Positions 28,604 to 57,400 of a DNA stretch of 64,000 nt are shown piece after piece. Below the pieces are notes generated by a model. It worked only from the letters and a program-made list of their open reading frames with translations. It had not been told where the DNA came from and did no database searches. The stretch's first letter is position 1. The number at the start of each line of letters is the position of its first letter. Position numbers and translations under genes: made by a program. The DNA comes from Flectonema sp. DT1601. Lineage: Eukaryota. The stretch covers positions 1,240,001-1,304,000 of the forward strand of contig OZ025793.1 in assembly GCA_964019425.1 (NCBI GenBank), in the 5' to 3' direction.

Positions 28604-28881
28604 TGATGATAAAGTGAAAGTTGGATTCAAAGGTAATATTATTACGAAAGTCATACGCCACATTTGCTGAGGCAAATGCGTTGATCTATCGTCGGCATCA
28701 AGGGAATATTTTTATAATGATTTCTTTTTATCAATCTGTTGTAAATGTTGTCAATTATTACTACGCTCGTCTAAGTTGCATAGCAAACTACGGAGCTACT
28801 TGATGTCTGTCGAATGTTGTGTAGTTAACAGTAAATTAGTTTGGTTTCCCTTCACAGCAATTGTAACTACACACTAATAAC

Positions 28882-37301: not shown

Positions 37302-38960
37302 TCAGTTGAGATCAAAGTCCGAATCGTTACTTTCCATTTCTACGTCACGGTTTTTATCACTATCCTGCTTAGCAGCAGATTCGGTGGGCGGTGTTGTTGT
37401 TTGTGCTGTTGCTGGTGCTGGCGTTGGTGTTGGTGCTGATGGTGCTGGCGCTGGTGTTGGTGCTGATGTCGGCTGCTGAGTTGGCTGTTGTGGTTGAGGA
37501 GTTGTTTTTTGTCTCTTCAGGGTTCCCGTTAGTTTTTGAGCCGCGTCGCCTGGGTTGTAGGTTGGGCCTAGCGGTTTTCTGTCAGTTCGTTTAACTTCTT
37601 TGTTTATCACAAGGTATTCATTAGTACCTATGCTTATGAAGTTGGGCGGTTGAGATTTCGCAATTGCAACAATTGTAGTACTCCCTCCTTTATGGAAAGA
37701 AGCAACAACTGTGTGTTCCCAGTTGTGTGAGGACTTCAAGAAGTCGCTGATCTGCGCTGTCGAGTACTTACGAATCGCCATCGAATTTATAACAAACCTG
37801 TCGCCCGAGGGCAGTGCAGGCTTGATTGCCGCGTTGAGCTTAATGCTGACCCTGATATTACAGTCAGGGTGGACTCGGAGTCCAAAACAGCTTTTAAACC
37901 TGCACATGTAGAATTTTCCTTTGAATTCATCAAGTGCAGAAGTCTTGGACTTCGCTGCCAGGAAGCCAAGGTCGTTTTTGAATTGCAACGTTGGCCAAAC
38001 GTCACTTCCGTTCGACCAACTCGGGTTTCTGAAAAAGACATTCTTGGGTTTGTCAGTTTCGGGTTCGCTGTTGTTGTATTCCAGAACCTCGTGTACTTGG
38101 TTTCTGGGGACTCTGAAAGCCATCGAGGTGTGGGACTCGTTCTTTCTGTAGCTAAAGGGGTCCGCCTTTATCTTCAATTTCTTTAGAATATCGGTCGTTT
38201 TGACGGTCAATTCTTTCTCAGCTGATTTACCCCAGTCTTGGATGAATAGAACTGGGTTGGGAGTTGGAATCTGGTGGCTAGTTGCTGCTTTAGAAAAGTC
38301 GTCACCAAATACGTGCGTGTAAAATACGCGCCTGATCTCGCAGACGCCACCCTTTTTTATCACCGGTAATGCTACTGGAACGGTGCTCTTTGTGAGCGGG
38401 ATTTTGCTGATAGCAGCCCAACGGCCGCTCTTCTTTGTTTGGCGGAGTGCTTCTAAGTCTAGCTTCGAACGAACTAAAACAAGACCAGAGGTAAGGTTGT
38501 TTGTAGCATTAGCTGCTACGTCGTAACTGATGGTGGCCACAGCGCCTGCCCACGCACCGTGAATGTGCCACTCCGGGTAGCTTGCTTTTGCCTTTCCCTT
38601 CGTGGTTTGATTGTCCTTCATTGCTGTCGGTATCGGCAATGAGAACGGCTTCGTACTCGTTTGTTGATTAGAAGCTGTAGATGCTCCTGTAGTTGGTTGG
38701 TTGACACCTGTAGTTGAGGGTGTCGTCGCTTCTGCTGCCGTCGTCGCGGTCGCTTCCGTCCCACCACTCCCATCGAGTGTGTCCGGTGTCCTCCTCTTCA
38801 TCTCCGGGTTCCCACCTTCTGACCCAGCTACGAATTGAACGATCTCCATTAGGAGATTTGCCACCCTTCTTTCCTTCTCTTGCTCCGGGATCCCGTCTTC
38901 TCCCACTATCTTCAGGAGGTTTATTGCCTCCGATACCAACCTCTTCAGGTTGTCTCTCAT
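37302..38960 (-). CDS. A1 ORF1 (552 aa from first ATG), ending in TGA-CTAG
   Basis: Open frame; its C-terminal half is conserved in copy A2. Confidence 0.85.
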   Translation of the reverse strand: MRDNLKRLVSEAINLLKIVGEDGIPEQEKERRVANLLMEIVQFVAGSEGGNPEMKRRTPDTLDGSGGTEATATTAAEATTPSTTGVNQPTTGASTASNQQTSTKPFSLPIPTAMKDNQTTKGKAKASYPEWHIHGAWAGAVATISYDVAANATNNLTSGLVLVRSKLDLEALRQTKKSGRWAAISKIPLTKSTVPVALPVIKKGGVCEIRRVFYTHVFGDDFSKAATSHQIPTPNPVLFIQDWGKSAEKELTVKTTDILKKLKIKADPFSYRKNESHTSMAFRVPRNQVHEVLEYNNSEPETDKPKNVFFRNPSWSNGSDVWPTLQFKNDLGFLAAKSKTSALDEFKGKFYMCRFKSCFGLRVHPDCNIRVSIKLNAAIKPALPSGDRFVINSMAIRKYSTAQISDFLKSSHNWEHTVVASFHKGGSTTIVAIAKSQPPNFISIGTNEYLVINKEVKRTDRKPLGPTYNPGDAAQKLTGTLKRQKTTPQPQQPTQQPTSAPTPAPAPSAPTPTPAPATAQTTTPPTESAAKQDSDKNRDVEMESNDSDFDLN

Positions 38961-39018
38961 AATTGCTTTTTCCTGTGAAACGTACCCACTGATTCTTACC
39001 AATATTAGGTTGCGAAAT

Positions 39019-39034
39019 CAATAAAGTACAGAAA
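39019..39034 (-). other. spliced-leader remnant at the 5' end of A1
   Basis: Reverse complement is TTTCTGTACTTTATTG, the 3' 16 nt of the Leishmania/Diplonema-type SL exon. Confidence 0.85.
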
Positions 39035-41755
39035 ACTGACGGTATTGGTTTCAACCAAACTTCTTATCGGAAAACGCGTTCTTGCCGGGAAAACATCCTA
39101 TATGTTACGGACAGACTTAGATTTCTTAAACACCAAAAAAAGTCAGCGGCCCTTGTTCTTCTTGATATCGAAAAAGCTTTTGATAGTGTGAACCATGATC
39201 TTCTCCTTCAAAGGATGGTAGATCTTGGAATACCAAAACATTTTATAGCCTGGATTCAGGCCTTTCTTAAAAAACGAAGAGCAGCGGTTGTTGTTAATAA
39301 TGAAAAAGGTTCTTACCACAATGTTTATTCTGGCGTTCCACAAGGAACAGTTTTGTCGGCTCTACTTTTTACTCTGTATATTGAAAAAGTCGCAGAAAGA
39401 CTAGATATTACGGTTGCTAAGTATGCGGATGATATTGCTTTTGTAGTTGATGATGAAGGGAAAGGTTTTACTTATCATTTGGCAAAAACGAAATATTTCT
39501 TTAATGAGATTGAAAAGGATCTAAACGAATTAAAATTAAAAGTAAGTTATGAGCCTGACAAAACAAAACTTGTGTATTATCCCTACTCCCCAAATTCCCC
39601 ACTACAAACACCTTTCACTTTTACTTCAAATTTAACAAAAAATATTGTTCCATGTGTTGATAGCGCCAAGCTTCTTGGGGTGATCCTTGATAACAAGCTC
39701 GATTGGAAACAGCATATCTCGTATATTTGTAGAAGAGTTAATCTTCGCTTAAGGTATCTGAAGCTTGTCGCATCAAAAGCATGGGGACAGTGTACTGCAA
39801 CTTTGCGTGAGGTGTATGATTTGTATATTCGACCTGTCATAACAAACTCGTGTGAAGCTTTTTATCCTGAAGTTAGGTATAAAAAGATTCACATGGACAG
39901 GCTTCTCTCTTTACACCTTAGGGGTGCGTGCTATGTCTTAGGTGCCTTACCACCAACAAGGGAAACAAGAGATAAGATCTTTTTTGAGGCACAACAACAA
40001 AGTATCAACACCCATTTGAGACTTGAAACTGGTAGATGGTTCGCCAAAATGGCGCGAATCACGTCCCCTTTATTAAATGTCTTTATTCCACCTGAAAGAA
40101 TATCCTCAACACCCATTGATTCTTTTACTCGTTTAGGAATGAATGTTCTGAAAGAACACAACCTTCTATCACTCAGTTTTGAGAAATATCCCATTTACGT
40201 TCATCCTCCATGGAGTTTTTCAAATGATTTCAATGTTTTTAAACCAGAAATGCATGTTAGAAAAAAAAAAGACAAAAAGAAAAATAAAAAAGCCTGTGAA
40301 GCTGTTCTTAATGAAATAAGGAAAGATTATGAACCAGTCTTAGAGGTATATACCGATGGTGCCGTTGTTGAAGAACGCGGTGCTGCGGGTGTGTACATCA
40401 TAGACAGCGAAGGAAATGAATTTCTCACAAACAAAAGTGAAGCAGGAATAATCTGCACCTCTTTTAGGGCTGAAATGATGGCGATCAAAAACGCTTTTGT
40501 TTTACTTTTTAAGGAATTTGAACCGCCGGAAAATGCGTCAGTTTTATTTGTGTCAGACTCCTCCAGTGCCTTGATGGAACTGGAAAAAGGGGGAACAAAA
40601 CAGAAAACGAGACTAGGAAGCCGCATCTGGCAGTTTATTGAATTTTTCAACAATAAATTCAAAACAAAGTTTATTTTCCAGCATGTCTTTTCTCACTGTG
40701 GTATTGTCGGAAACGAAGAAGCAGACAAACTAGCCCAAAACATTTCATTAAAAAAAGATGAAGAAACCCTTTTAAAACAAAAAAAAGTTCCCATAGACTA
40801 CAGCACCCATGTAGCTAAACTAAAACACAGAATAAAAGAAAAATTTGACCCCCGTCCTTTCCCATCTGAAACTGAAAGAGCGGAAGAAATTCTGATTTCA
40901 CAACTCAGAATTGGCGACTGTAAACAAACACAAGGGAAATGTCCTAGGTGCAGAGAAAAAGACTCTGTAGAGCACCTGTTAGCAAAATGCTCAAAGTACA
41001 GAAAAGAGAGGAGGATGTATCTCCAGAAAGACTCTCTAACACAAGAAGAGTTAAAGGATTGTCTTTCCACTGTACAAGGACTAGAGAATGTTTTTCTTTT
41101 TATGTCATCTGCAAGAAGATATGTTTTTCCAGAAAAAGAAAAGAAAAAAGAAAATTTGAGTCAGGAAACAAAGAAAGAAAATGAAGAAAACGTTATCCTT
41201 CAACCCACACTTTTCAATACTGTGATTCAAAACTCACAACTGACTTGATTTCTCAAGCTTCCAAATTAACCAAAGTAGCACCTACACCATGGGGATGGTC
41301 TGATTGTTGATTGACTGATGGGCCGATATAGATTGGACACAGATCGAGAGTTTTTGAGAGATCTTAGATGAAAGTCCGCACCTTTCAGGCCATCCCCAAA
41401 AAGCACATAGCAGCTACAGCTATGTCAATTCAAATTGCGACGAGCTGCAACTTCGACATGAAGTTTTTCGTTATTGTTCTTACCTTCTCCACATATTTAC
41501 ATATGTGATAAGTATAAGTCATATCTTACGATTGACAATTCCTCCCCATAAATAAATTTCTTTTTATTATTTTATTTTACACCTGCCTTACTAACTTGGG
41601 GAGAAAGAAAGGAAGAACAATGGGCCTCTTATGAGGTGGGCAATTGCCCTGGACCCACATTAAATGTACGCGTGTTTTGCGTCAGCCCGTTGCTGTAGAA
41701 AAAGAAGAGACAGTTTCAGGTAGTAATGAAAAAAAAAAAAAAAAAAAAAAAAAAA
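39030..41755 (+). mobile_element. non-LTR retrotransposon family B, copy B1 (5'-truncated inside RT; RT-RNase H-CCHC open to 41248; 3' UTR; poly(A))
   Basis: GVPQGTVLS, YADD, YTDGA, HCGIVGNEEAD, CPRC..H...C; poly(A) run of about 27 nt; near-identical to B2. Confidence 0.93.
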
Positions 41756-41940: not shown

Positions 41941-42053
41941 GGGATGTGACTAAATAAATAAATAAAAAAAAAGGTTTTTTTTCTTTCTTTTTTTTTCTTT
42001 TTTCGGGAAGATAAAATGGAAACTACTTTCTTTGTCCTTTCTCATTATACATA

Positions 42054-45000
42054 TTTTTTTTGGTTACACTCGTCTGTGCTACCAAACTCTTTGTTTTTGT
42101 TCTTTTCACTTCTATGTTTTGTCTTTCTTTTATACTTTCTTTTGGCTTAAGTCTGACAAATTGGAAAACACGGGAAACATAGGTAGGCTCCGCCTGAGGA
42201 CGTAAGAAGAGCGGCAACGGAAAAATAAGTGGTCACGCGTCCTTGAAATTGGACACATGAAGCTAATTCGGTTACCATTCCTACCATCGATAAGGAAAAA
42301 ACAAAGAATCGAGCATATAACTAGAGCGGTGGTCAAAGACCACTTGAACAGCCCGAAGGCCTGCCCTCAAGAGAAATTTATAAGGAGAATAGGAGAAGAA
42401 GGAGACAGGAGTGTTGGAAGAGACACTGCGACAACACCGAAGGTGGTGTGCAGTTACCCAACCAGGAGATGATTGATAATGATGAAAATACTAAAAAAAT
42501 AATAACAAATTGATATTGGCGACTACATGTCACCTACTTTACTTCCAAAGTCTAAGGTTAGATGTCTGTTCCATCCACCTTATGATCAACGCGAGTGATG
42601 GAAGCCACGCCAAAGTGAAGAGAGCTTCAAGGTTAGGAATTTCGTTGGCAATAATAAGTTCTCGATCGCGATCCCACTTGCCGGTCAGTGTTGAGAAGCC
42701 CAGGATTTTGAACCTGGCAGAGTCGAGTTTGGGAGATTGACATCCCTGCAGCAGGTGAACCTGTGAGGACGGTTCGCCACAAAATGGGCAGTCGATTTTC
42801 TTGCGCCAGTTCTGAATTAGCGGGTGACATCCTGTCCGGAAGTTCGCTATCCGTATCTCGTCGGCTCTTTCCATCCCAGGAGGGTATTTAACGGAACGGC
42901 CTCCGATGAGGTGTTTGTAGCAGGTGTAACCACTCACGTTAAGCAGATCCTTTTTGATGCAGCGCTTAACATGTGATGATCGCGAGAAGTAAGTGCCTTT
43001 GACTAGCACAGGTCGGATGTTCTTGTTGTGCGCTGCTTCCTTTGCAAGCGCGTCAACTTCATCGTGAAACTCGATTCCAATGTGTGAGGGGATGAATTGC
43101 AAATGCACTTTCATTTCACACATGCGCAGGTATTCTAGTATCTTGAGGGACTCAGTATTCCTCTGTCTGCACCTTCCACCCAGCAGTTCATCCAGAAGGG
43201 ATTTTGAGTCCGTGAATATCCTCACAGATTTCATTGAACGATCTTTGCTAAACACTGTTCTCAGATGTCTAGCCGCGTTCTTCAGAGCATGTTGTTCAGC
43301 CCTGTAGCTGCAGTCAGCTTGATAAAGCCTAGACGCGTAAGCAGATCGAAGGCCGCTACGTGACTTGGCAATATGAGCCGCTCCGGCCGCGCCGGAAGCA
43401 GAGTAGGAGCCATCGCAGTTGATTACCATGTCGACAGGAGGTAACGTTCCAATGTACGACATGAATTTTTCTTTGTCCACCGCAGGGTTCGCGGACTTCG
43501 GAAATCCGCAGCCGTTGCTAATCCTAAGGTTTGTCGGAGATACCCAGGGTTCCATCGAGTCAGGCTGTACAAGGCACTGGCTTTCACGCTGGCTGTCAAT
43601 GCCAGGAAGGAGGCCAGCCCAGTAGCTTTGGGTTGAGGCGAGTCTGTTGGTACTAGGTATCCAAGTCATGGCTTTATACCTGTAGTACGCTATCTTGGTT
43701 TGCTTTTCAATCTGACGTTTAAAAGGAAGCATGTCCGCTTCCCACAGTAGAAGTTCTCTCGGTGTGCACCTGCTGCATCCAGTAACCAGCCTGGCAACCT
43801 TCCTCAGTTCGAAATCAATACTATCAACGCTGTTGCTTATCAACCAACCAAAGCTATCGAGCGCATAAGAGATTCTCGCAGTTACGTAAAGGTTCTTGAC
43901 CATATTTAGCGTTTTGTAGTCAAGATCATACGGTTGAAGGCATTGAAGCAGAGATATTCCCTTTTTCAGTTCTTCATGAATCTTAGCCACCTGTTTGTGG
44001 AAAGTGAGTCTGTCGTCGATGTGAACTCCGAGGTATTTCACTGAGTCCACGATTGGCAACAGAAATGCGGTTTTAAAACTGGCTTTCACCACCATCACGT
44101 TGTCTTCGAGAACAATATTCCGCAACATCACGTTGTCAAGTTCGTCTTGCGTTTTGATCGGAGTTCCATCAACCTCGAGAATAGTTTCGCCGCTTTGAAG
44201 CATGGGTCTAGAAGAAGTTAAGTTGATACTCTTTTCAATGTCACTATAGTCCATTTTGATAACGTTTTCCACAACAGATCTGGAAAATAGTAATTCGCGA
44301 TTGCAGGTGTCGTTGAGAATCGTATCCTTCGTACGGACTTTCATCTTAAGAGCACAGGTCTTTGAGACCGACAGGGCCATGTCGTTGTCAGAACACCATT
44401 GATCCACTTTATCAAGTATTATTTGAGCATTTGAAAGAGCTTCTTCCATGTTATGTCCAGATACTACACATGCTGTATCATCCGCATACAGAGCAGACGT
44501 CGTTGTTTCCTTCTCCAGTTCCAAAATCTTGCAGAGGTCATCAACGTAGATAAGATAGAGAAGAGGACCCAGGATCGATCCCTGTGGAACCCCCTTAGCC
44601 AGAGTACGGAATTCGCTAAGATAACCATTCGCTTCAACTCTAACCTTCCTGTTTGTAAGAAAGTCTGTGATCCATCTGATAATAACATTCGGAACACCCA
44701 TCTTTACCAATTTTAATAAAAGTATCTTATGGTTGATCCTGTCAAACGCAGCAGTAAAATCAAACGATAAGAACACCGATCTCTTTCTCTTCATGTGCAT
44801 CCTTACGACGGCATCTACCAAAACGGTGATCTGTTCGCAGGTATTTCTCCCCCTTCTGAATCCAGCCTGTAGTGGGCTGAGTGACGAATGTTTAGTGAGC
44901 CAGTGCATGAGTCGGTCATACACGAGCCTCTCCGCAAGTTTCCCAACAACCGAGGTGAGCGTAATGGGTCTGAAACTCTTCAGCTCATTTCGAGGTTTTC

Positions 45001-47290
45001 CAGCCTTGAACATAGGCTTGATTAAACCTTGTTTCCACTGGTACGGTACTTTTGAAGTCTTCCAAGAAGTGTTAATAATTCTCAAGAGGTATTCCACTGT
45101 TGCCGGAGTGAAGTTTTTGATCATCTCATTGTGAACTCCATCAGGTCCTGCAGCCTTGCGGGTCTTCAGGTTCTTAATCGCTGCTTCAATTTCAGCCATT
45201 GTGAAATCACAGCAAATATCCATTTCATTATCACCTTCTGAGAGTGCGGGGGCCTCTAGCGATAATATTTCCGATTTCGAGACAAACAGGTCCAAGAATG
45301 CTGATGGGAGATCGCAGTCAGAGATGTTGTTGACACTGATATCTTTACCAGCATCTTGCTGCAGTTCTTTGATCTTCTTAAACGCAAAGGCAAAGTTGTT
45401 ACCCTTGTCAAGTTGATCACGTAGGTGGATACCCTTCGATTTGGTGGAATCTGGAGTTGACGTCTTCCACTTTCGTCTCCGTTTCCCTTTGAAAAGGACA
45501 CGTCGTCGAATGAATTTAGCCGCTACTTCATGCAGTATGTTGTTAAAGAGCTTAGCATTCGCAGTTGCATCGTTGGAGAGTTTCGATTTTCTAATTCTCT
45601 TATCGAGCATATTTCCAAAGCAGTTCCAGTCCGTAGACTTGAAGTCCCACACTACGCGTTTCTTAGAACCTATCGTGGCCCGTGTAAGTTGACACATGGG
45701 ATCCAGTACGGTGTAGAGAGGTCGGTGATCAGATCCATGTTTATTATCTTCTCTAATTACAGAGAATTCTTCCAGAATCATCGAGTTTTGAAAAAATACT
45801 ACGTCCGGCGAGGTACCGCCCCCCGGGATATTAGGAAAAGGCCTTGTGATTGACCCCATCTTGTTGGCTACCAGTAGATCATTGTGTGCTGCCCATTCAT
45901 GTAGAGTAGAACCTGCTGGCGTCGATTTTGATGACCACACCGGATGATGGGCATTAAAGTCACCCGCGACGATTGCTTTCGTTGAGACTGGAAGATCTGA
46001 CTTTCTGATCTTGCATCCCGGGGGAGCATAAATATTTAAGATGTCAATCTTTCCACCTATGTTGACCTTTACAACTTCAACATCATTTAAGTGAGGCGGA
46101 AGTACGATATCAGAACGCTGCTGAGTGTGGCATTTCTTCACCATAGTAATAACCCCACCACCCCGTGTTGCCCTATCATTCCGATAGGTAAAATAATCCG
46201 TGTGTGAGACTACATCTTTTGTCCAAGTTTCTTGCAGGCACAGTACGTCAGGCGCATAGGCATTGAGCAGCTTGTGTATGTAGGCACCTTTGTTCCCCAT
46301 TGATCGACAGTTCCAGCTTAGTAGTGATATGAGGGAGTCGTCAGGGCCAGGGTTGCGTTCGACATCGCCTGCCTGAAGCAGCAGTTCACGAGCCGTATTC
46401 TTTTCTGTGAGTGAGTTGGTCGGATTTAAATCATCGTCATCTTCATCTAGTCAGTTGAGGTCAAAATCCGAGTCATCGTCTTCCATTTCAACATCGCCGT
46501 TCTTATCACCTTCTTGTTTAACAGCAGATTTAGTGGGTGGTGGAGCTGATGCTGGTGTGGGTGCTGGCGCTGGTGTCGGTGCTGCTGCCGTCTGATGTGG
46601 TAGCTGAGTTGGTTGTTGTGGTTGAGGAGCTGTCTTCTGTCTCTTCAGGGTTCCTGTCAGTTTTTGAGCCGCGTCGCCTGGGTTGTAGGTTGGGCCTAGC
46701 GGTTTTCTGTCACTTTTCTTAACTTCCTTGTTTATCACAAGGTACTCATTGGTGCCTATGCTCACGAAGTTGGGAGGCTGCGTGTTTGAAATCGCCACAA
46801 TCGTAGTGCTTCCACCTTTGTTAAACGATGCGACCACTGTGTGCTCCCAGTTGTGAGAGGACTTCATAAAGTCGCTGATCTGCGCTGTTGAGAATTTCCG
46901 TATCGCCATTGATTTTATAATGTACCTGTCACCGGAAGGCAGTGCAGGTTTGAGTGACGCGCTTAACTTAATACGCACTTCAGTGTTGCAGTCGGGATGA
47001 ACTCGGAGTCCATAACAGGTTTTGAACTTACACAGGTAGAATTTACCTTCGAAACCTTCCAGTATTGATGTCTTGGACTTTGCTGCCAAGAATCCAAGAT
47101 CGTTATTGAATTGAAGAGTTGGCCAGACATCGCTTCCATTTGACCAGCTCGGGTTTCTGACAAATACATTCTTAGGTTTGTCGGTCTCCGGGTCGTTATT
47201 GTTAAACTCCAGAATCTTGTGTACTTGGTTTCTGGGAATTCTAATAGCCATTGAGGAATGTGAATCATTTCGTTTGTAACTGAAAGGGGC
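42054..47290 (-). mobile_element. family A copy A2 (5'-truncated in ORF1; ORF2 intact)
   Basis: Same 3' UTR and terminus as A1; ORF1 C-terminal half, TGA-CTAG, 2A and ORF2 all present. Confidence 0.95.
42539..46450 (-). CDS. A2 ORF2 (linker, 2A, APE, RT, RNase H)
   Basis: In frame with the ORF1 stop; RELLLQAGDVERNPGP. Confidence 0.93.
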   Translation of the reverse strand, partial: LDEDDDDLNPTNSLTEKNTARELLLQAGDVERNPGPDDSLISLLSWNCRSMGNKGAYIHKLLNAYAPDVLCLQETWTKDVVSHTDYFTYRNDRATRGGGVITMVKKCHTQQRSDIVLPPHLNDVEVVKVNIGGKIDILNIYAPPGCKIRKSDLPVSTKAIVAGDFNAHHPVWSSKSTPAGSTLHEWAAHNDLLVANKMGSITRPFPNIPGGGTSPDVVFFQNSMILEEFSVIREDNKHGSDHRPLYTVLDPMCQLTRATIGSKKRVVWDFKSTDWNCFGNMLDKRIRKSKLSNDATANAKLFNNILHEVAAKFIRRRVLFKGKRRRKWKTSTPDSTKSKGIHLRDQLDKGNNFAFAFKKIKELQQDAGKDISVNNISDCDLPSAFLDLFVSKSEILSLEAPALSEGDNEMDICCDFTMAEIEAAIKNLKTRKAAGPDGVHNEMIKNFTPATVEYLLRIINTSWKTSKVPYQWKQGLIKPMFKAGKPRNELKSFRPITLTSVVGKLAERLVYDRLMHWLTKHSSLSPLQAGFRRGRNTCEQITVLVDAVVRMHMKRKRSVFLSFDFTAAFDRINHKILLLKLVKMGVPNVIIRWITDFLTNRKVRVEANGYLSEFRTLAKGVPQGSILGPLLYLIYVDDLCKILELEKETTTSALYADDTACVVSGHNMEEALSNAQIILDKVDQWCSDNDMALSVSKTCALKMKVRTKDTILNDTCNRELLFSRSVVENVIKMDYSDIEKSINLTSSRPMLQSGETILEVDGTPIKTQDELDNVMLRNIVLEDNVMVVKASFKTAFLLPIVDSVKYLGVHIDDRLTFHKQVAKIHEELKKGISLLQCLQPYDLDYKTLNMVKNLYVTARISYALDSFGWLISNSVDSIDFELRKVARLVTGCSRCTPRELLLWEADMLPFKRQIEKQTKIAYYRYKAMTWIPSTNRLASTQSYWAGLLPGIDSQRESQCLVQPDSMEPWVSPTNLRISNGCGFPKSANPAVDKEKFMSYIGTLPPVDMVINCDGSYSASGAAGAAHIAKSRSGLRSAYASRLYQADCSYRAEQHALKNAARHLRTVFSKDRSMKSVRIFTDSKSLLDELLGGRCRQRNTESLKILEYLRMCEMKVHLQFIPSHIGIEFHDEVDALAKEAAHNKNIRPVLVKGTYFSRSSHVKRCIKKDLLNVSGYTCYKHLIGGRSVKYPPGMERADEIRIANFRTGCHPLIQNWRKKIDCPFCGEPSSQVHLLQGCQSPKLDSARFKILGFSTLTGKWDRDRELIIANEIPNLEALFTLAWLPSLALIIRWMEQTSNLRLWK

Positions 47291-47357
47291 TGCAAAAGGT
47301 TTATTTATTTATATTGTTTTATTTACTTTATTCAAAAAAGAACTTAAAAGGAAATTC

Positions 47358-48313
47358 TTTTTTTCTTTTTTTTGGTTACACTCGGGGGCGTCATAGTGCA
47401 GTGGATGGGGTGGTGCCCCCGCACCCAATCGGCCTCGGTTCGAACCCCGCTGTACGCACCGCGCCTCACAGCGCAATCAGTTTCCGTGTCGCATCCCCCA
47501 TTGTCTCGAAAAAGTGAACGGCCACCCAGTAAGGGCAGCGCCTAAGCAATTATAGTAGTAACAAAAAGAAGGAGAAACACAGTAGTGAAACACTCAAAAA
47601 AAAAAAAAAAAAAGGTTACACTCGTCTGTGCTTCCAGACTCTTTGTTTTTGTTCTTTTCACTTCTTTGTTTTGTCTTTCTTTTATACTTTCTTTTGATTT
47701 AAGTCTGACAAATTGGAAAACACGGGAAACATAGGTAGGCTCCGCCTGAGGACGTAAGAAGAGCGGCAACGGAAAAATACATGGTCACGCGTCCTTGAAA
47801 TTGGACACACGAAGCTAATTCGGTTACCATTCCTATCATCGATAAGGAAAAACAAAGAATCGAGCATATAACTAGAGCGGTGGTCAAAGACCACTTGAAC
47901 AGCCCGAAGGCCTGCCCTCAAGAGAAATTTATAAGGAGAATAGGAGAAGAAGGAGACAGGAGTGTTGGAAGAGACACTGCGACAACTCCGAAGGTGATGT
48001 GCAGTTACCCAACCAGGAGATGATTGATAATGATGAAAATACTAAAAATTATAACAAATTGATATTGGCGACTACATGTCACCTACTTTATTTCCAGAGT
48101 CTAAGGTTAGATGTCTGTTCCATCCACCTTATGATCAACGCGAGTGATGGAAGCCACGCCAAAGTGAAGAGAGCTTCAAGGTTAGGAATTTCGTTGGCAA
48201 TAATAAGTTCTCGATCGCGATCCCACTTGCCGGTCAGTGTTGAGAAGCCCAGGATTTTGAACCTGGCCGAGTCGAGTTTGGGAGATTGACATCCCTGCAG
48301 CAGGTGAACCTGT
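47358..48313 (-). mobile_element. family A copy A3 (short 3' fragment) interrupted by a SINE
   Basis: 3' UTR and last ~75 codons match A1/A2. Confidence 0.9.
47385..47613 (+). mobile_element. tRNA-derived SINE with poly(A) and 11-bp TSD
   Basis: A box TAGTGCAGTGG, B box GGTTCGAACCC, A18 tail; GGTTACACTCG at 47374-47384 and 47614-47624. Confidence 0.85.
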
Positions 48314-51300
48314 CCTGGAAAATGGAAAGGGAAAAAAGGAAAGAAAGGAACCAAGGGAGAGAGCGGTAAAGGAAAAAAAACTGTTTTGTCACCACCGTCA
48401 ACCTCAGTAACCCCGTCAATAGAACAAAACGGACATTTTAAACCAGCTAAAATTATTATTAGATGCACAAACAAAGCATCTAACAACAAAGATCATTGGC
48501 ACTTTTCTAGCCGATGATCCGAAAAAGCAAGCAGAAGCTTGGGATGCGGAATTAAACCCGCAAGAAAAAGAAGGTTTTCAACAAGGATCGATGGACGAAG
48601 ACATCGATCTTGTGAAGCTGAAGCTGGACAAAGAAAACAGTGATAGTGATGACAACACAAAAAGAAAAAAAGAAGAACCTCCGAATTGACTGTTTCCTTA
48701 TAATTTTTATCTTTTTTATTTCTCGAACCTTCTTTTGTGTGGAGACATCCACCCGAACCCGGTCCACAAAAAAAGCGGGAGGAGATTGTTAAAGTGGAAG
48801 GAGGAGAACGGTAAGGAAGTCTCACAGGCGGTAACAAGCACACACGAGAAAAATATTGTGCCTGAAACCACCACGGAGCCTACCATGGACCATGACTCAG
48901 ACAAGATGACGTCAGACTCGAGCTCGATCTGCTCCCCACCGACACAAGAAGACCGCCCCCCCAGTAGGGATGTGTGGGTGCGGAAAGGAGATACCGCAAG
49001 CAGCGATCAAGAATCCGGTGAAACACCCGACGAAGGGATGGTGTGATAGGTGTGGAGAGCGGATCGCGAAGGGAACACGGGTAGTCATGTGCGTGAAGTG
49101 TGACCACGCTGAATGCTGCGGATTGTTGGAGAGATCGCGGCGTGGGAAAGAGAAGAGGAAAAGGAAATCACGGGGATCGCGATCGAAAAACGATGCCATG
49201 TGAGAAGCATGAAACGGAAAGTGAATGAACGGAAAAAATTAAATGTAAAGAAGTGAACTTGTAAAAAATGTAAAGAAGCAAACATGTGAAAAGAAAAATG
49301 AAAAAAAAAAGAAGAGTGAAAAGGAAGACAGAGTTGTATGTAAACTGTATGTAAATGTAAGAAGAAAGAAAAAACACGCTGGAAGTGGGAGTGCAACCAT
49401 CAGCGCAAACACAACCACAAATATTGTTTTTTTTCCTTTTTCTTTTCTTCGCTTCGGCGACAGATATGGTAGGACCTAGAAAACCGGCCCAAAACTTGTG
49501 TTGCAGTTTATCTTTTTAGCGCACACTCATGTAACATAAGGATCGCTGGTTCCGAGGGTTTGCTCTCCTGCCATACTTGCCTCTCACCTGCCTCAAAAAA
49601 AAAAAAAAGCAAAAAAACAGTGAGTTGAGAATTGTATCTTTTAATGTTTGTGGTCTCAAGTCGAAATCCGACGAAATAACTTTTTTTTACAAAATATAAA
49701 ACCTGACCTATTCATGGTTCAGGAAACTTTGTTAAAGGATAACGACGAAACCATTAATTTTAATGGGTACAAGTGTCTCAGAAGAGACCGGAGAATTCCG
49801 GTAAAAAAAAACGCACCCGTCAGAGGTGGTGGATTGGCAATTTTTTACAAGAACAGCCTAAGCGTGACGTCACAGCTGTTGCACAACACAGCCAAGACTG
49901 CACTGAAGTCCAGGGCATTTTGTGTCAAATTCAAAACAAACTGTAAGGGTATACAACGTGTACAGACCACCGGTAAGCCAATCAACCTCTGATAGGTCCC
50001 CCTCTTTTGATATGAATAGTATTTTTCTTTTTAATAAAAATGATAAAGTAGTTATCGCGGGGGATCTTAACGCAAGGCATCCACTCTGGGACCCGAGAGA
50101 CGAGTCAAACACAAATGGCCATGAAGTCTCGACTTTTCTAAACAATAACCAGTTTGAATGCTGCAACGTTAAGGAAATCCCCACAAGACCAAAATCAAAC
50201 ACTTCTCCTGATGTTGTTCTCCAAAAAAACTGTGATATTGGCAACTGGACGACGCTCGAATCTCTATCAAGCGATCATGTACCAATGTATTTTTCTCATT
50301 CTTTTTTTTCGGATTCGATAAACAGAGCGAACGGTGCAACGGTTTTTTCTTATAATTGGAACAGGGCACTGTGGCCAAACTACAGCTCCCACCTCGAAAG
50401 GGTGGCGAAGCGACTTGAAAAGATTCAAGATAACCAGAAATTATCAATGGAATTCATAAGAGAATTAAAAAATGCGCTACGGATCTTTGTACCAAGGATT
50501 TATTTGAAAGGAAAGTCACCAAAGAAGTGGTGGAACACGACGGTTGCATCTAAGTTTCATGAGTTCAACGAGTCACATTGTGACAAACGGGATGATCTTA
50601 CAGATCTGTCGCAACAGGGAAAGTCAATTTTTACATCTTTAAAAAAAGAACTCAAAAAAACAGTCGTTGATGCCAAGAATCAACAGTTTAAAAAAAGCCT
50701 TAAAAAAGACAAGTCTATTATTGAAGCTTTTGAAGACATAAGAGGCCTTGATGGAAGATCAAGGCTTAAAGAAATTCGAGAAATCACCTGTGGTGATAAA
50801 CTTGTTACAGATGATGTGAAAAAAGCATCAATTTTCAATAATCAATTTTTACAACGTGTTGGTAACATCGAAGAAAAAACAAAGACAAAGAAAATAGAAA
50901 CAGACCCTTCTGATTTTACACCATTTACACAACATGAACTTAGAATCCAATTGAGAGGAATGGCTCTGGAAAAGAACTCACCAGATGGCGTTCAAGGTAT
51001 TCTTCTTAACCATTTGGGACCTAGAATGCTAAACATTTTACTTAAGATTTTTAACAATTCGTGGAAACATTCTGTTGTCCCGAGTGATTGGAAAGACACA
51101 CACTGGATCCCTGTTTTAAAAAAAGGAAAACCCCCAAACCTCCCCTCTTCATATAGAATGATCTCTCTCACCCCTTTTATTGCGAAATTGATGGAAAGAA
51201 TGGTGAAGGAACGTCTTACGTATTTTATGCAATCACCGAATGAAAAGAAAACTGACGGTATTGGTTTCAACCAAACTTCTTATCGGAAAACGCGTTCTTG

Positions 51301-53234
51301 CCGGGAAAACATCCTATATGTTACGGACAGACTTAGATTTCTTAAACACCAAAAAAAGTCAGCGGCCCTTGTTCTTCTTGATATAGAAAAAGCTTTTGAT
51401 AGTGTGAACCATGATCTTCTCCTTCAAAGGATGGTAGATCTTGGAATACCAAAACATTTTATAGCCTGGATTCAGGCCTTTCTTAAAAAACGAAGAGCAG
51501 CGGTTGTTGTTAATAATGAAAAAAGTTCTTACCACAATGTTTATTCTGGCGTTCCACAAGGAACAGTTTTGTCGGCTCTACTTTTTACTCTGTATATTGA
51601 AAAAGTAGCAGAGAGACTAGATATTACGGTTGCTAAGTATGCGGATGATATTGCTTTTGTAGTTGATGATGAAGGGAAAGGTTTTACTTATCATTTGGCA
51701 AAAACGAAATATTTCTTTAATGAGATTGAAAAGGATCTAAACGAATTAAAATTAAAAGTAAGTTATGAGCCTGACAAAACAAAACTTGTGTATTATCCCT
51801 ACTCCCCAAATTCCCCACTACAAACACCTTTCACTTTTACTTCAAATTTAACAAAAAATATTGTTCCATGTGTTGATAGCGCCAAGCTTCTTGGGGTGAT
51901 CCTTGATAACAAGCTCGATTGGAAACAGCATATCTCGTATATTTGTAGAAGAGTTAATCTTCGCTTAAGGTATCTGAAGCTTGTCGCATCAAAAGCATGG
52001 GGACAGTGTACTGCTACTTTGCGTGAGGTGTATGATTTATATATTCGACCTGTCATACCAAACTCGTGTGAAGCTTTTTATCCTGAAGTTAGGTATAAAA
52101 AGATTCACATGGACAGGCTTCTCTCTTTACACCTTAGGGGTGCGTGCTATGTTTTAGGTGCCTTACCACCAACAAGGGAAACAAGAGATAAGATCTTTTT
52201 TGAGGCACAGCAACAAAGTATCAACACCCATTTGAGACTTGAAACTGGTAGATGGTTCGCCAAAATGGCGCGAATCACATCCCCTTTATTAAATGTCTTT
52301 ATTCCACCTGAAAGAATATCCTCAACACCCATTGATTCTTTTACTCGTTTAGGAATGAATGTTCTGAAAGAACACAACCTTCTATCACTCAGTTTTGAGA
52401 AATATCCCATTTACGTTCATCCTCCATGGAGTTTTTCAAATGATTTCAATGTTTTTAAACCAGAAATGCATGTTAGAAAAAAAAAAGACAAAAAGAAAAA
52501 TAAAAAAGCCTGTGAAGCTGTTCTTAATGAAATAAGGAAAGATTATGAACCAGTCTTAGAGGTATATACCGATGGTGCCGTTGTTGAAGAACGCGGTGCT
52601 GCGGGTGTGTGCATCATAGACAGCGAAGGAAACGAATTTCTCACAAACAAAAGTGAAGCAGGAATAATCTGCACCTCTTTTAGGGCTGAAATGATGGCGA
52701 TCAAAAACGCTTTTGTTTTACTTTTTAAGGAATTTGAACCGCCGGAAAATGCGTCAGTTTTATTTGTGTCAGACTCCTCCAGTGCCTTGATGGAACTGGA
52801 AAAAGGGGGAACAAAACAGAAAACGAGACTAGGAAGCCGCATCTGGCAGTTTATTGAATTTTTCAACAATAAATTCAAAACAAAGTTTATTTTCCAGCAT
52901 GTCTTTTCTCACTGTGGTATTGTCGGAAACGAAGAAGCAGACAAACTAGCCCAAAACATTTCATTAAAAAAAGATGAAGAAACCCTTTTAAAACAAAAAA
53001 AAGTTCCCATAGACTACAGCACCCGTGTAGCTAAACTAAAACACAGAATAAAAGAAAAAATTGACCCGTCCTTTCCCATCTGAAACTGAAAGAGCGGAAG
53101 AAATTCTGATTTCACAACTCAGAATTGGCGACTGTAAACAAACACAAGGGAAATGTCCTAGGTGCAGAGAAAAGGACTCTGTAGAGCATCTTTTAGCAAA
53201 ATGCTCAAAGTACAGAAAAGAGAGGAGGATGTAT
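48314..53234 (+). mobile_element. family B copy B2 (ORF1 end, TGA, 2A-like motif, Cys-rich region, APE, RT, RNase H; frameshifted; 3' end interrupted)
   Basis: LLLCGDIHPNP, SFNVCG, VQET, GDLNARH, SSDH, YADD; frameshifts near 48760, 49650, 49900 and 53065. Confidence 0.9.
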
Positions 53235-54398: not shown

Positions 54399-54414
54399 AA
54401 ACCAACACATTCCA

Positions 54415-57400
54415 ATGAGCGAAATGGAGGCTATGACCCCCCTGAAAGACATTATGAACTTCAATATTAAAATGGTGAAGAAGGGTTTTGGAAGTGATCG
54501 TGTATTCGATAAATACAAGGATGTTAAGGAGGTAATTGAGAAATTTGCAGGAGTAGGGGATAAAGCCGCAGAGATGATATTGGAAAAAAAACCAATATCA
54601 ATAGCATCTGACTTTCCTGACAGAGTAGCTGAGATCACCATCGAAGGGAAAGAGCTGAAGCTGTTAGCACCTCATTCCTTTGTTGAGGGATGGGTTACTG
54701 CTTGCTCAGAAAGCAATTGCCCTCCTGTTTTCTATTCTCTGTATACGAGGAAAGTAAAAGATGAGTTAGACTTCATGCTCTTCGACAGCAATATTCCTGT
54801 TCTCACACTGATTCAAAAGGACCGTGAGAACGACAACATCCACTACTTCGATGGAATTAAAGATCACTTCAAGGATGCCATGAGGGATGCCGTACATGAC
54901 AAAACGTTCTTTGTTGTACTCCCGAGGAAGTCTCCCGGGTGCACTGCCGCACATGAGTTCCTACGACTACTGTATCTGACTCTGAGGAAGGAATGTAGGA
55001 ACGACAGCATGGATCTCTTTATACTCGCTGATGATGACATCAAGGGTTCACGTTGTCACGTTCGGAATGAAGTGGGAGAAAAGTTCACTAAAAAGACTGC
55101 GGATGGTAAGATCTCCGATTTGGTGCGCAACCTTACAGAGTTTGTGGATCAACTTGATGAGAAACCCCTCGTGTTGAGTCTGAATCGTGCCCACACTGCA
55201 CTACTGCTTCCTACTATTTACAATGAACATGGTGATCCTAATCCCCCAAGGAGAGGGACAAAGTCTGATTCGTTTCTTCTGATCCACGCACGCGACAATA
55301 ACATAATTAGCAATCTTCCGTTCTGTTCCTCCAGTCAGCTCTTGTTGGATGATGACACGAGACAGGTATTCAAGTGGTTAGTGGGAAATACGAAGAGCGG
55401 AATGGAAGTATTAGAGATTGAGATAGAAGGAAAGAAGATCGATGTGAAGGCGACCAGGATATTCTCGCAGTTCGAAGACTACTTCTTCCACATGTTGCTC
55501 GCACACACGAACAAAATTAAGCCGGGTTTGCCACGATCATGGATGATTGCGGGGGCGAAACTCTTAAAGTCTGATTCAAAAGGAAACACGACTAACATAG
55601 AAAATGATGGCTTAAAGGTAGCACAAAATAAACTAATACCCTATTGCCGCCTGGCATCTATGCTGCAGATCGATCCGTTTATTGAAAAAGCCAACAAACT
55701 AAAAGTACAATTAAGGATCCTTGATGGCAACGAAGACGCATTTTCCATCCGACAGTTTTTTCTTCGAAGAATAAAAATTGAACGAGTTTCTGCGAAATTA
55801 TTTCGGCCGGCTTTTAAGTTACCACTGATACCGTTGACTATGGTGTTGTGTTTTGCGGTGTCTGTGAATGTATTTCACTTTACTACTGAACAGATGTCTG
55901 ATTACGTTGGCGCAACAATACTTGCACACTTAGGAGCAAGGTTTATGACTCTTATTTTCGCAACGATGCCAATCCTTTACGTCTTGGGTGTGATCCACAA
56001 AGTTATTAGAGATTTTATACGTGGGTTTGATTGGCGCAGCCCAATAAAAAACAAATCTCCTACGGGGAATAATCTTTCATGGAAACCGAGCGCAACAGAT
56101 TCGTATAAGTTTAATTTTGAAATCGCAGACGGGTATACTAAGAATTCCATAGTCATAACACGGGAAGGTTGTACTCTAAAGCTGAAGGAATCTGCTCTAA
56201 AGAAATGGAACAAAGGGATTCAGGAAAAAAACCCTCTCTTCTTCGACTTGGGGTTTGATAAAAACAGAAATTCGTGGCAACTAACGGACCGCCCGATACT
56301 TGTGCTCACGAACTTCAAAATACCGATGGACAAACATGCCCTTTACGTATTCAGCAATAAGTGTGTCAGTTGCGGGAGGTGTAATGAGCTGAAAGCGTGT
56401 GAAGAATGCAATCAGAAAGAATGCGAGTGCACGAGTTGCGAGAAATGCAAAAAGCAACTATGCAAGGAGTGCCGGTGGTGTGATTGTGAGTCGGTGTCAA
56501 TAACTAATGCACAGATTCTACGCTTGATATTCTTTATTATGGCTGCACACCAACGAGGCAGAAGTTCATCTGAAAACAATCTTTTTAATCCGATCAGTCA
56601 ATTCGTTATCGCGGAGGAATGTAGTTTTGAGATACCTGTTTTTAATGACGACGAGTTAGATTTCACGTTGCGGGGTGCACCTGAGCACGTGGTGGTGGAA
56701 CTATTTAAACAGAAGCAAAGTGACCTTGTGCTGTCATTCTCGGACGTTTCCGGCAAGCGACTTCCTGTTTCCCGCATTCAACACCACGAATTGGTACTGA
56801 AAACTATCAGAGAGGAGATTGAAGGAACTCTTAAAGAAAACACGAGCAGTTTATTTCAGCAAAAACTTAAAGATTACACTTCGTCGTTGTCCATGAAAAA
56901 TAAACAAGATAGAGAAGTGGAGCGTCGAGAAAGAAAAGAATCAGAAAGACGGGCAGTTGAGGAATGCAAACGTCAGGCGAGAGAAGAGGAGGAGCGCCAA
57001 AGGCAAGAAGCCAATTGTCGAGAAGTGGAACGTCGAAAGAGAGAAGAATCAGAAAGACGGACAGCTGAGGAATGCAAACGTCAGGCGAGAGAAGAGGAGG
57101 AGCGCCAAAGGCAAGAAGCCAATTGTCGGGAATTGGAACGTCGAATGAGAGTAGAGGAGGAGCGTCGAGAAAGAGAAGAATCAGAAAGACGGGCAGTTGA
57201 GGAATACAAACGTCAGGCGAGAGAAGAGGAGGAGCGCCGAAGGCAAGAAGCCAATTGTCGAGAAGTGGAACGCCGAAGGAGAGAAGAGGAGGAGCGTCGA
57301 AAGAGAGAAGAATCAGAAAGACGGGCAGTTGAGGAATACAAACGTCAGGCAGAAGAGGAGGAGCGCCGAAGGCAAGAAGCCAATTGTCGAGAAGTGGAAC

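What the first reader, a model, noticed from the sequence alone, without database searches (positions are those of the whole stretch)
46343..46453. The readthrough linker is conserved as protein in a diverged copy
Seen: A2 keeps AAC TGA CTA G and the exact linker length. Its changes are mostly synonymous or conservative (LDEDDDDLNPTNSLTEKNTARELLLQAGDVERNPGP). The GTG that the ORF track uses as the A1 start is ACA here, and the first in-frame ATG lies after the APE SWNCRS motif. Inference: the linker is translated and the stop is not a decay mutation.
Basis: partly seen in the sequence, partly recalled or inferred. Interest (0 to 1): 0.8.

Follow-up and report, generated by a model that had tools for sequence, protein, structure and literature searches.

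The report
Leaky stop plus 2A in retrotransposon
Two copies of a protist jumping gene keep the same stop codon, in a context known to be leaky elsewhere, followed in frame by a conserved 2A "ribosome-skipping" peptide, so the second protein is likely made by reading through the stop and then skipping one peptide bond, a pairing the papers searched here do not describe.

Summary
It lies on the minus strand.

**What is there.** A2 (42052..47308) and A1 (32903..~39025) are copies of an APE–RT–RNase H non-LTR retrotransposon in a euglenozoan-type genome. In both, ORF1 ends at AAC TGA CTA G. Exactly 36 in-frame codons follow, ending in the 2A motif DVERNPGP and running straight into ORF2. The first in-frame ATG lies 7 residues inside the endonuclease domain.

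**The stop is a fixed family feature.** All 36 ORF1 proteins that reach the C-terminus, of 43 listed from three subfamilies, stop after the same Asn. No long fused ORF1–ORF2 protein was found.

**The linker looks translated.**
- It has 14 nucleotide differences: 4 silent codons, 7 replacements (all BLOSUM62 ≥0), no indel and no stop.
- Under neutral simulation this pattern has P≈0.002 for the whole linker and ≈0.007 for the first 18 codons.
- Plain dN/dS is 0.58 and not significant (p=0.32).

**Best reading (about 0.6).** UGA readthrough followed by 2A StopGo would release ORF2p.

**What weakens it.**
- Sibling families have a called start codon at the head of the 2A leader.
- No 3' RNA structure is predicted.
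- Only two DNA copies could be read.

2A in non-LTR elements is known. Coupling it to an in-frame leaky ORF1 stop was not found in the literature searched.

The parts
46454..47308 (-). A2 ORF1, 5'-truncated (stop-to-stop frame; homology to full-length ORF1 starts at 47293)
   Evidence: tblastn: P0153 residues 270-549 match 47293..46454 at 99.6% identity. Translation. No Pfam family.
46447..46456 (-). AAC TGA CTA G: last ORF1 codon (Asn), the ORF1 stop (TGA, 46451-46453) and the CUAG 3' context
   Evidence: Identical 10-mer in A1 at 37298..37307. UGA-CUA and UGA CUAG are described as readthrough-prone contexts in passages read.
46343..46450 (-). 36-codon linker/leader in the ORF1 frame: an acidic head (LDEDDDDL) followed by the 2A peptide
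   Evidence: Neutral-simulation P=0.0019 and 0.007 for codons 1-18. No ATG, GTG or TTG in A2.
46343..46366 (-). 2A core motif D-V-E-R-N-P-G-P; the predicted skip is between Gly (46346-46348) and Pro (46343-46345)
   Evidence: Motif definition D(V/I)ExNPG|P from papers. The same AGDVERNPGP ending is listed for a picornavirus 2A.
42539..46342 (-). A2 ORF2 after the 2A (includes the TAA stop at 42539-42541); the first in-frame ATG is at 46298-46300
   Evidence: dN/dS against A1 is 0.11 over 1267 codons.
45725..46321 (-). APE-type endonuclease domain (Exo_endo_phos); it begins 7 residues before the first ATG
   Evidence: Pfam PF03372, residues 44-242 of linker+ORF2, profile positions 1-225 of 225, E=2e-12. 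PF14529 E=1.5e-13.
44330..44992 (-). Reverse transcriptase domain
   Evidence: Pfam RVT_1, E=4.6e-34, residues 487-707.
43031..43432 (-). RNase H domain
   Evidence: Pfam PF00075, 28.7 bits (cut-off 25.8), E=1.6e-6.
42052..42538 (-). A2 3' UTR ending in an A-rich tail
   Evidence: 98% identical to the A1 3' end; homology stops at the A-run.
37305..38960 (-). A1 ORF1, full length (552 aa from the ATG at 38958-38960)
   Evidence: 99.6% identical to database protein P0152 over 552 aa. Translation.
37194..37304 (-). A1 TGA (37302-37304) plus its 36-codon linker ending in DVERNPGP
33390..37193 (-). A1 ORF2 (APE, RT, RNase H)
32903..33389 (-). A1 3' UTR and A-tail

Best explanation
Family A is an APE-RT-RNase H non-LTR retrotransposon whose ORF1 ends at a fixed UGA in the context AAC UGA CUA G, followed in the same frame by 36 codons that encode a 2A peptide and run straight into ORF2; ORF2 protein is likely made when a minority of ribosomes read through that UGA and then skip the Gly-Pro bond at the 2A. 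Shown directly: the anatomy, the fixed stop, the in-frame linker without an ATG, the intact 2A motif, and the conservative, frame-specific substitution pattern. Inferred: most ribosomes would terminate and give ORF1p. Readthrough ribosomes would give ORF1p extended by 35 residues ending in ...NPG, plus a separate ORF2p starting with Pro. On this reading the leak rate of the stop would set a low ORF2p:ORF1p ratio, and the 2A would do the job that a protease does for a retroviral Gag-Pol readthrough product.
For: 1. ORF1, the single TGA, the linker and ORF2 are one continuous frame in both copies.
2. The stop is fixed. All 36 listed ORF1 proteins that reach the C-terminus, from three subfamilies, end after the same Asn. 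No fused protein of 526 aa or more was found.
3. The context is UGA-CUA-G in both copies. UGA followed by CUA is the 'type II' viral readthrough motif (passage), and UGA CUAG is described as preferable for readthrough in mammalian genes (passage). The 4 host TGA stops in the window are followed by T, A, T, T and not C.
4. A2 has no ATG, GTG or TTG in its linker. The first in-frame ATG removes the first 7 positions of the endonuclease profile, including the SWN Asn.
5. Three (A1) or four (A2) out-of-frame ATGs lie between the stop and that ATG, which makes scanning or reinitiation to it unproductive.
6. There is protein-level constraint from the first codons after the stop. All 7 replacements have BLOSUM>=0, with no stop and no indel: P=0.0019 for the whole linker, 0.007 for codons 1-18 and 0.03 for codons 1-14. 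The other two frames carry stops and non-conservative changes.
7. ORF1 and ORF2 evolved under purifying selection between the two subfamilies (dN/dS 0.09 and 0.11), so the ATG-less, in-frame arrangement was kept in working lineages.
8. TGA is not a sense codon here.
Against: 1. Only two DNA copies could be read. They share ancestry, so 'in frame' is one event with a 1-in-3 chance.
2. dN/dS of the linker is 0.58, not significantly below 1 (p=0.32).
3. Sibling elements have a start codon at the head of the leader. C-type ORF2 proteins are called from a start 35 residues before the 2A Pro (6 of 6 N-terminally complete members among the 15 listed). A Flectonema ORF2 has an ATG 32 residues before it. 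Independent initiation or reinitiation may therefore be the family's usual route.
4. No stable RNA structure is predicted 3' of the stop (z = +1.6 and +0.4).
5. The leakiness of UGA-CUAG is documented in the passages read for mammals and viruses, not for Euglenozoa.
6. A2 itself is 5'-truncated and cannot be an active copy.
Confidence: 0.6

Rival explanations
1. There is no readthrough. Ribosomes terminate at the UGA and then reinitiate, or 40S subunits initiate, at a non-AUG codon inside the linker. The 2A then trims the short leader from ORF2p, as proposed for ORF1-less 2A elements.
For: - Sibling families have a called start at the head of the leader: C-type at -35, Flectonema ATG at -32.
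- Termination-reinitiation is the documented route for the SART1 element (passage in Odon 2013).
- A1 has a GTG at linker codon 15, and both copies have ACG and CTG codons later in the linker.
Against: - The A1 GTG is ACA in A2.
- The remaining near-cognate codons leave 17 residues or fewer before the skip site, while 2A elements are described as 18-30 aa with a needed upstream context.
- Codons 1-14, upstream of any such start, still show a conservative pattern (P=0.03).
- Three or four out-of-frame ATGs directly follow the stop.
Confidence: 0.2
2. ORF2 is translated from its own processed mRNA, for example one made by spliced-leader trans-splicing between the ORFs as is usual in Euglenozoa. 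On this reading the frame relation to ORF1 is irrelevant.
For: - The genome has the one-direction, intron-poor gene layout of Euglenozoa.
- Essentially all mRNAs of Diplonema carry a spliced leader (passage).
- An AG lies right after the stop (CTAG).
Against: - There is no in-frame ATG for such an mRNA before the endonuclease domain.
- The first ATGs after the AG are out of frame.
- There is no pyrimidine tract directly upstream; the sequence there is purine-rich.
- It does not explain the protein-level pattern in the first linker codons.
Confidence: 0.08
3. Both window copies are dead relics. The in-frame stop and the missing ATG are accidents with no role in expression.
For: - A2 is 5'-truncated.
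- The in-frame relation has a 1-in-3 prior.
- dN/dS of the linker alone is not significant.
Against: - The same stop is found in 36 of 36 C-terminally complete ORF1 proteins across three subfamilies.
- dN/dS is 0.09-0.11 in both ORFs between A1 and A2.
- The clusters hold 101 (ORF2) and 20+13 (ORF1) members with many full-length forms.
- The replacement pattern has P=0.0019.
Confidence: 0.07
4. UGA is decoded as an amino acid (a reassigned codon or selenocysteine), so ORF1-2A-ORF2 is simply one ORF.
For: Stop-codon reassignment exists in some Euglenozoa (recalled, not from a call).
Against: - 4 of 11 host ORFs in the window end in TGA.
- All 57 Trp codons in 6,727 host codons are TGG, and no host ORF is interrupted by TGA.
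- ORF1 proteins in the database all end there under a standard-stop caller.
Confidence: 0.02

Closest known systems
2A-like StopGo sequences at the N-terminus of ORF2 in APE-type non-LTR retrotransposons (L1Tc/Ingi of trypanosomes; CR1, Crack, L2, Rex1-type elements of animals; Heras 2006, Odon 2013, Luke 2013)
   Same: - The D(V/I)ExNPGP motif with a Leu-rich stretch before it.
[quoted passage not shown]
- The domain order APE-RT-RNase H and the euglenozoan host are as for Ingi/L1Tc.
   Different: - The described elements mostly lack ORF1, and the Ingi clade is stated to have none (passages; abstract and text).
- Family A keeps a 549-552-aa ORF1.
- Its 2A leader has no ATG and is joined in frame to ORF1 through a single UGA.
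- None of the passages read mentions a stop codon upstream of the 2A.
Programmed stop-codon readthrough of the type II / UGA-CUAG kind (alphavirus replicase UGA-CUA; mammalian UGA CUAG genes) and gammaretroviral gag-pol readthrough
   Same: - A UGA followed by CUA(G).
- A downstream in-frame enzyme ORF made at a low ratio to an upstream structural protein.
- A stop conserved among relatives.
   Different: - No 3' stem-loop or pseudoknot is predicted.
- The fusion would be split co-translationally by a 2A rather than by a protease.
- The host is a euglenozoan, where this context has not been tested in anything read here.
SART1-type termination-reinitiation (UAAUG) and the unconventional ORF2 translation of LINE-1
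   Same: Bicistronic non-LTR RNA with ORF2 made at a low level from the same RNA (passage).
   Different: - There is no AUG at or near the stop in frame.
- The ORFs are in the same frame, with an open and conserved linker.

Membership tests
2A / StopGo peptide | C-terminal motif D(V/I)ExNPG|P | tested here: met
   DVERNPGP is present in both copies. The motif is as defined.
2A / StopGo peptide | A suitable upstream tract, 18-30 aa in all, translated in frame with the downstream protein | tested here: met
   35 in-frame residues precede the Pro. The stretch TEK.TARELLL.AG is conserved in A1 and A2 and recognisable in C-type and Flectonema leaders. Length criterion.
2A / StopGo peptide | Measured skipping activity (two products from one ORF) | not testable with these tools
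   Needs in vitro translation or a reporter assay.
APE-type non-LTR retrotransposon | APE endonuclease and reverse transcriptase in one ORF, here with RNase H as well | tested here: met
   PF03372 and PF14529, PF00078; PF00075 above its cut-off.
APE-type non-LTR retrotransposon | No LTRs, an A-rich 3' tail, 5'-truncated copies | tested here: met
   The 3' UTRs are 98% identical and end in A-runs. A2 lacks the first 269 ORF1 codons.
Ingi clade (Ingi/L1Tc) | RT phylogeny places the element with Ingi/L1Tc | not tested
Only the domain order and host group are alike.
Ingi clade (Ingi/L1Tc) | Single long ORF, no ORF1 (as stated by Odon 2013) | tested here: not met
   A 552-aa ORF1 is present and conserved (dN/dS 0.09).
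Programmed stop-codon readthrough | Leaky stop context (UGA followed by CUA/CUAG) | tested here: met
   AAC TGA CTA G in both copies. Contexts.
Programmed stop-codon readthrough | Stop conserved in relatives, and the downstream in-frame sequence under protein-level constraint | tested here: met
   36 of 36 complete ORF1 proteins end at the same place. Linker pattern P=0.0019 and 0.007. dN/dS alone is inconclusive (0.58, p=0.32).
Programmed stop-codon readthrough | Stimulatory 3' RNA structure (frequent in type II and III viral cases) | tested here: not met
   Folds of 129 nt around the stop are no more stable than shuffles (z=+1.6 and +0.4). With two sequences no covariation test was possible.
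Programmed stop-codon readthrough | Detected readthrough product | not testable with these tools
   No RNA run, ribosome profiling or proteome was available.
L1-type ORF1p (coiled coil, RRM, CTD) | RRM-like nucleic-acid-binding fold | tested here: inconclusive
   The AF2 model has mean pLDDT 45.9. Foldseek gives no match at E<=1e-3. VIA-align gives tied RRM, KH and ACT matches at Z<=7.3 for residues 233-317, 319-387 and 386-456. No Pfam family.

The most novel reading that the evidence does not exclude
A euglenozoan LINE-like family expresses its enzyme by two recoding events in a row on one RNA: leaky UGA-CUAG readthrough at the end of ORF1, then 2A StopGo release. It is thus a protease-free analogue of retroviral Gag-Pol. 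The invariant Asn-stop across diplonemid relatives, and a second unrelated element in the window (family B) with the same stop-then-2A layout, suggest this is the ancestral way 2A-bearing elements coupled ORF1 to ORF2. The 'ORF1-less' 2A elements such as Ingi/L1Tc would then be its derivatives.
Probability: 0.35. Interest if true: 0.78.

Novelty: new variant of a known kind. Interest (0 to 1): 0.62.

Why it matters
How ORF2 is translated from the bicistronic RNA of LINE-like elements is a long-standing open question. The 2013 papers read here proposed that 2A replaced ORF1 as the device that keeps ORF2p scarce. This family has both a large ORF1 and a 2A, joined in frame by one stop in a leaky context. 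That gives a concrete, testable model in which the leak rate of a stop sets the ORF1p:ORF2p ratio and the 2A separates the two proteins.

It would be a natural case of two recoding signals working in tandem. It would also extend UGA-CUAG readthrough to Euglenozoa. The 2A and the junction are short, portable sequences that can be tested directly in reporters.

Tried and rejected
- **Whole genome:** none is held, so the 'all family A copies' DNA test was not possible.
- **Sequencing runs:** two holders with small shares and no RNA holder listed. Laying them gave only 151-nt near-identical contigs. One spans 46370..46520 with the same TGA-CTAG and one difference at 46478. These may come from the source organism and are not independent.
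- **JGI metagenome scan with an ORF2 alignment:** 80 loci, all distant (20-36% identity). Only 3 of 80 carry a 2A-type NPGP site and none is informative about an ORF1 stop.
- **Fused ORF1-ORF2 proteins:**
  - None of 526 aa or more was found.
  - The only junction-spanning protein is P0174 (363 aa), a decayed C-like copy that reads from the ORF1 tail through a Trp into a degenerate 2A (..DIEQNSGP) and the APE.
  - Without DNA, its tail frame cannot be verified, so it is left as ambiguous.
- **RNA structure 3' of the stop:** none beyond shuffles.
- **Bacterial promoter/terminator scan:** 0 sites; not relevant to a eukaryote.
- **ORF1 identity:** no Pfam family. Atlas hits are unnamed clusters only. 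Fold searches were inconclusive.
- **Family B upstream frame:** not homologous to family A ORF1 by tblastn.
- **Selenocysteine or reassigned UGA:** rejected from host gene stops and Trp codons.
- **Earlier findings of this scan:** nothing on record.
- **Heras 2006 (L1Tc 2A):** could not be read.
- **bioRxiv supplements:** these list tested 2A peptides and are closed, so whether this exact peptide was assayed is unknown.
Full report
**Observation**

The finding lies on the minus strand. Reading 46480→46280 gives ...GAC CTC AAC TGA CTA GAT GAA.... Translating 47251→42539 gives a 266-aa ORF1 remnant ending ...DSDFDLN, one TGA, then LDEDDDDLNPTNSLTEKNTARELLLQAGDVERNPGP, then DDSLISLLSWNCRSMGNKG... 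and a further 1253 residues with no other stop. The stated coordinates 46343..46453 are exactly the TGA plus 36 codons.

A second copy, A1, has the same layout at 37194..37304.
- The 10-mer AACTGACTAG occurs only at these two places. Shuffles give a mean of 0.13, and 3 of 100 shuffles reach two matches.
- A back-translated DVERNPGP pattern also hits only these two places, with 0 of 100 shuffles giving any hit.
- A six-frame scan finds three NPGP sites, and only these two have D-V-E-x before them.

**What the elements are**

The sequence after the TGA (linker+ORF2) carries three domains:
- Exo_endo_phos/Exo_endo_phos_2 at residues 44-242, covering profile positions 1-225 of 225;
- RVT_1;
- RNase H at 28.7-28.8 bits against a cut-off of 25.8.

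About 490 nt of 3' UTR follows, 98% identical between the copies and ending in an A-run. ORF1 has no Pfam family.

A1 has a full ORF1 of 552 aa from the ATG at 38960. A2 lacks the first 269 codons, the 5' truncation typical of this element class. These are therefore two copies of an APE-type non-LTR retrotransposon: A1 at about 32903..39025 and A2 at 42052..47308.

The surrounding host ORFs include PP2C, an Atg3/10-type domain, SAM, histidine phosphatase, SPRY, papain-type protease, RING/LON and GDSL lipase. All are long, uninterrupted and on the plus strand. This is the one-direction gene-cluster layout described for Euglenozoa (passage). The only named relatives of both ORFs come from the diplonemid Flectonema neradi transcriptome.

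**Comparison of A1 and A2**

The two copies belong to diverged subfamilies.

| Region | Codons | pS | dN/dS | Note |
|---|---|---|---|---|
| ORF1 | 290 aligned | 0.58 | 0.09 | |
| ORF2 | 1267 | mosaic, 0.02-0.72 per 100-codon block | 0.11 | |
| Linker | 36 | 0.18 | 0.58 | about 4.8 synonymous and 9.2 non-synonymous differences |
| Linker, first half | 18 | | 0.68 | |
| Linker, 2A half | 18 | | 0.19 | |

Since both ORFs are under strong purifying selection, most of the divergence arose in working lineages. Features shared by A1 and A2 were therefore kept while the elements were active.

The kind of change is more informative.
- The 14 differences fall in 11 codons: 4 silent and 7 replacements (D/E, E/D, E/D, S/N, V/T, D/N, K/Q), all with BLOSUM62 >= 0.
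- Placing 14 random substitutions on the A1 linker, with the ts:tv ratio taken from ORF2 third positions, gives 'no stop and only BLOSUM>=0 replacements' in 0.19% of 200,000 trials. An intact DVERNPGP occurs in 7.8%, and the joint outcome (also 7 or fewer replacements) in 0.03%.
- For codons 1-18 alone the figure is 0.7%, for codons 1-14 it is 3%, and for codons 1-9 it is 6% (40,000 trials each).
- In the other two frames the linker has stops in both copies, and the changes are mostly non-conservative.
- The linker has no indel. The 69 alignment columns of ORF1 tail just before it have three, of 3, 3 and 7 codons.

**Is the stop a decay mutation?**

No. The protein collection holds three ORF1 clusters, by their shared contig lengths presumably from one assembly:
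- A1-type: P0152, 20 members;
- A2-type: P0153, 13 members;
- C-type: P0159, 18 members, a sister subfamily. Its ORF2 is P0002, with 67% identity to A1 and 37 members.

Of the 43 members listed, 36 reach the C-terminus, and all 36 end after the same Asn (..DFDLN or ..VEMD(N)SN). The other 7 break off earlier.

Two Flectonema ORF1 homologues (48-49% identity) have tails that cannot be aligned to these, yet they also end in Asn.

Three searches that could have shown a fused ORF1-ORF2 protein found none of 526 aa or more:
- ORF2 query, candidate lengths 716-2281 aa;
- a 1200-aa read-through query against 1.84 billion representatives, best 150 inspected;
- a 300-aa junction query against longer proteins, with 4 hits, all ORF1-only or ORF2-only.

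TGA is an ordinary stop in this genome. Four of 11 host ORFs end in it, and all 57 Trp codons in 6,727 host codons are TGG.

**How does translation get into the linker?**

The 2A motif only makes sense if translated, and 2A elements need 18-30 residues including an upstream context.
- A2 has no ATG, GTG or TTG in the linker.
- The GTG that an ORF finder picks in A1 (codon 15) is ACA in A2.
- The first in-frame ATG (codon 51) lies after SWNCRS, seven positions into the endonuclease profile. A protein started there would lack the start of the domain.
- Between the stop and that ATG there are three (A1) or four (A2) out-of-frame ATGs, the first only 4 nt after the stop. These would capture scanning or reinitiating subunits.
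- The stop context is UGA-CUA-G. UGA followed by CUA is the classical 'type II' readthrough motif, and alphaviruses use UGA-CUA (Firth & Brierley 2012, passages). UGA CUAG is cited as the consensus favouring readthrough in mammalian genes (passage citing Loughran 2014).
- The four host TGA stops in the window are followed by T, A, T, T.

Taken together, the best reading is that most ribosomes stop and release ORF1p. A minority would read through the UGA, translate the acidic head and the 2A, skip the Gly-Pro bond, and continue into ORF2. This reading is inferred; no expression data exist for it.

**Evidence against, and rivals**

- The sibling C-type ORF2 proteins are called from a start codon 35 residues before the 2A Pro. 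This holds for 6 of 6 N-terminally complete members among the 15 listed. The caller also uses GTG/TTG, as shown by A1-type proteins starting 'MEKDTAREL' at the GTG.
- A Flectonema ORF2 has an ATG 32 residues before the 2A Pro.
- The family may therefore generally start ORF2 independently or by reinitiation just after the ORF1 stop, with family A using a non-AUG variant of that route.
- No stable structure is predicted after the stop (z=+1.6 and +0.4).
- Only two DNA copies could be read, and the in-frame relation is a single evolutionary event.
- I put readthrough plus StopGo at about 0.6, reinitiation or non-AUG initiation at 0.2, a separate processed mRNA at 0.08, an accident in dead copies at 0.07, and reassigned UGA at 0.02.

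**Comparison with what is known**

2A-like sequences at the N-terminus of ORF2 of APE-type non-LTR elements are established for L1Tc/Ingi and several animal clades. That work stresses that most such elements lack ORF1, that the Ingi clade has none, and that 2A may have replaced ORF1 as the down-regulator of ORF2 (Odon 2013, passages; Luke 2013, abstract and first third of the text). Two 2026 preprints that survey eukaryotic and virome 2A peptides mention non-LTR elements but no upstream stop codon in the passages read.

Three full-text searches returned no paper describing readthrough coupled to 2A in a retrotransposon:
- '2A-like' / 'non-LTR retrotransposon' / 'readthrough';
- 'stop codon readthrough' / ORF1 / ORF2 / retrotransposon;
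- 'UGA CUAG' / readthrough.

This is a statement about those searches only. Heras 2006 could not be read.

Family A therefore works like a 2A-bearing Ingi-type element and like a Gag-Pol readthrough unit at once. It fails the 'no ORF1' feature given for the Ingi clade, and its RT phylogeny was not tested.

**ORF1**

It is an orphan: no Pfam family and only unnamed Atlas clusters. The AF2 model from a four-sequence alignment is poor (mean pLDDT 45.9). It shows an N-terminal helical hairpin and three beta-alpha-beta-beta-alpha-beta units between residues 233 and 456.
- Foldseek finds nothing at E<=1e-3.
- VIA-align gives tied RRM, KH and ACT matches at Z<=7.3, which the tool itself rates as common.

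A nucleic-acid-binding ORF1p is a lead, not a result.

**Verdict**

The anatomy is a new variant of known kinds, and the readthrough step is the untested part.

Noticed in passing
window 48420..48770 (+), within a decayed element spanning about 47400..53083: A second, unrelated element (family B: 2A-like, Cys/His-rich segment, APE, RT, RNase H) shows the same layout. An open acidic/basic frame ends ...KEEPPN at AAT TGA CTG (TGA at 48687-48689). It is followed in frame by 24 codons without an ATG, ending in LLLCGDIHPNP-V (48729..48764), a 2A-like motif that appears broken by a 1-nt loss. The upstream frame is not homologous to family A ORF1.
   Followed up: partly
ORF1 C-termini: window 46454-46456 and 37305-37307; proteins P0152, P0153, P0159, P0154, P0155: The last ORF1 residue is Asn in every lineage seen (A1, A2, C-type, two Flectonema homologues, and family B), although the tails differ in length and cannot be aligned. 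This may be a 5' context requirement of the stop or recoding event, or a need of ORF1p itself. It is unexplained.
   Followed up: partly
A1 33390..38960 vs A2 42539..47293: Synonymous divergence between the copies is mosaic: pS is 0.58 in ORF1, 0.06 around ORF2 codons 300-400, 0.72 around codons 700-800, and 0.02-0.06 in the last 350 codons, with 98% identity in the 3' UTR. This suggests recombination or template switching between subfamilies.
   Followed up: no
protein P0174 (ENA, 363 aa; not in the window): A decayed C-like copy whose predicted protein runs without a stop from the ORF1 tail (...LNKSNSRW) through a degenerate 2A (..LLAGDIEQNSGP) into the APE, then goes out of frame. It could be a copy whose stop mutated to a sense codon, which would show the same frame relation. 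Without DNA this cannot be checked.
   Followed up: partly
window 38993..41248 (+): A 5'-truncated family-B-like RT+RNase H fragment lies head to head against the 5' end of A1 (A1 5' UTR to about 39025). This implies nested or adjacent insertions forming a retroelement cluster between host genes.
   Followed up: no
window 1202..32375, 54400..57948, 61369..62373 (+): All host ORFs are long, uninterrupted and on one strand, and GC is 41.9%. This layout is consistent with a euglenozoan polycistronic gene cluster. The retroelements A1 and A2 sit antisense to it.
   Followed up: partly
window 47300..47336 and 37392..37470: Short stretches here attract very deep, unrelated contigs of run X2 (word depth up to about 10,000), that is, simple or common repeats: the low-complexity flank of A2 and the Pro/Thr/Ala-coding tail of ORF1. 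This is not evidence about the element.
   Followed up: no
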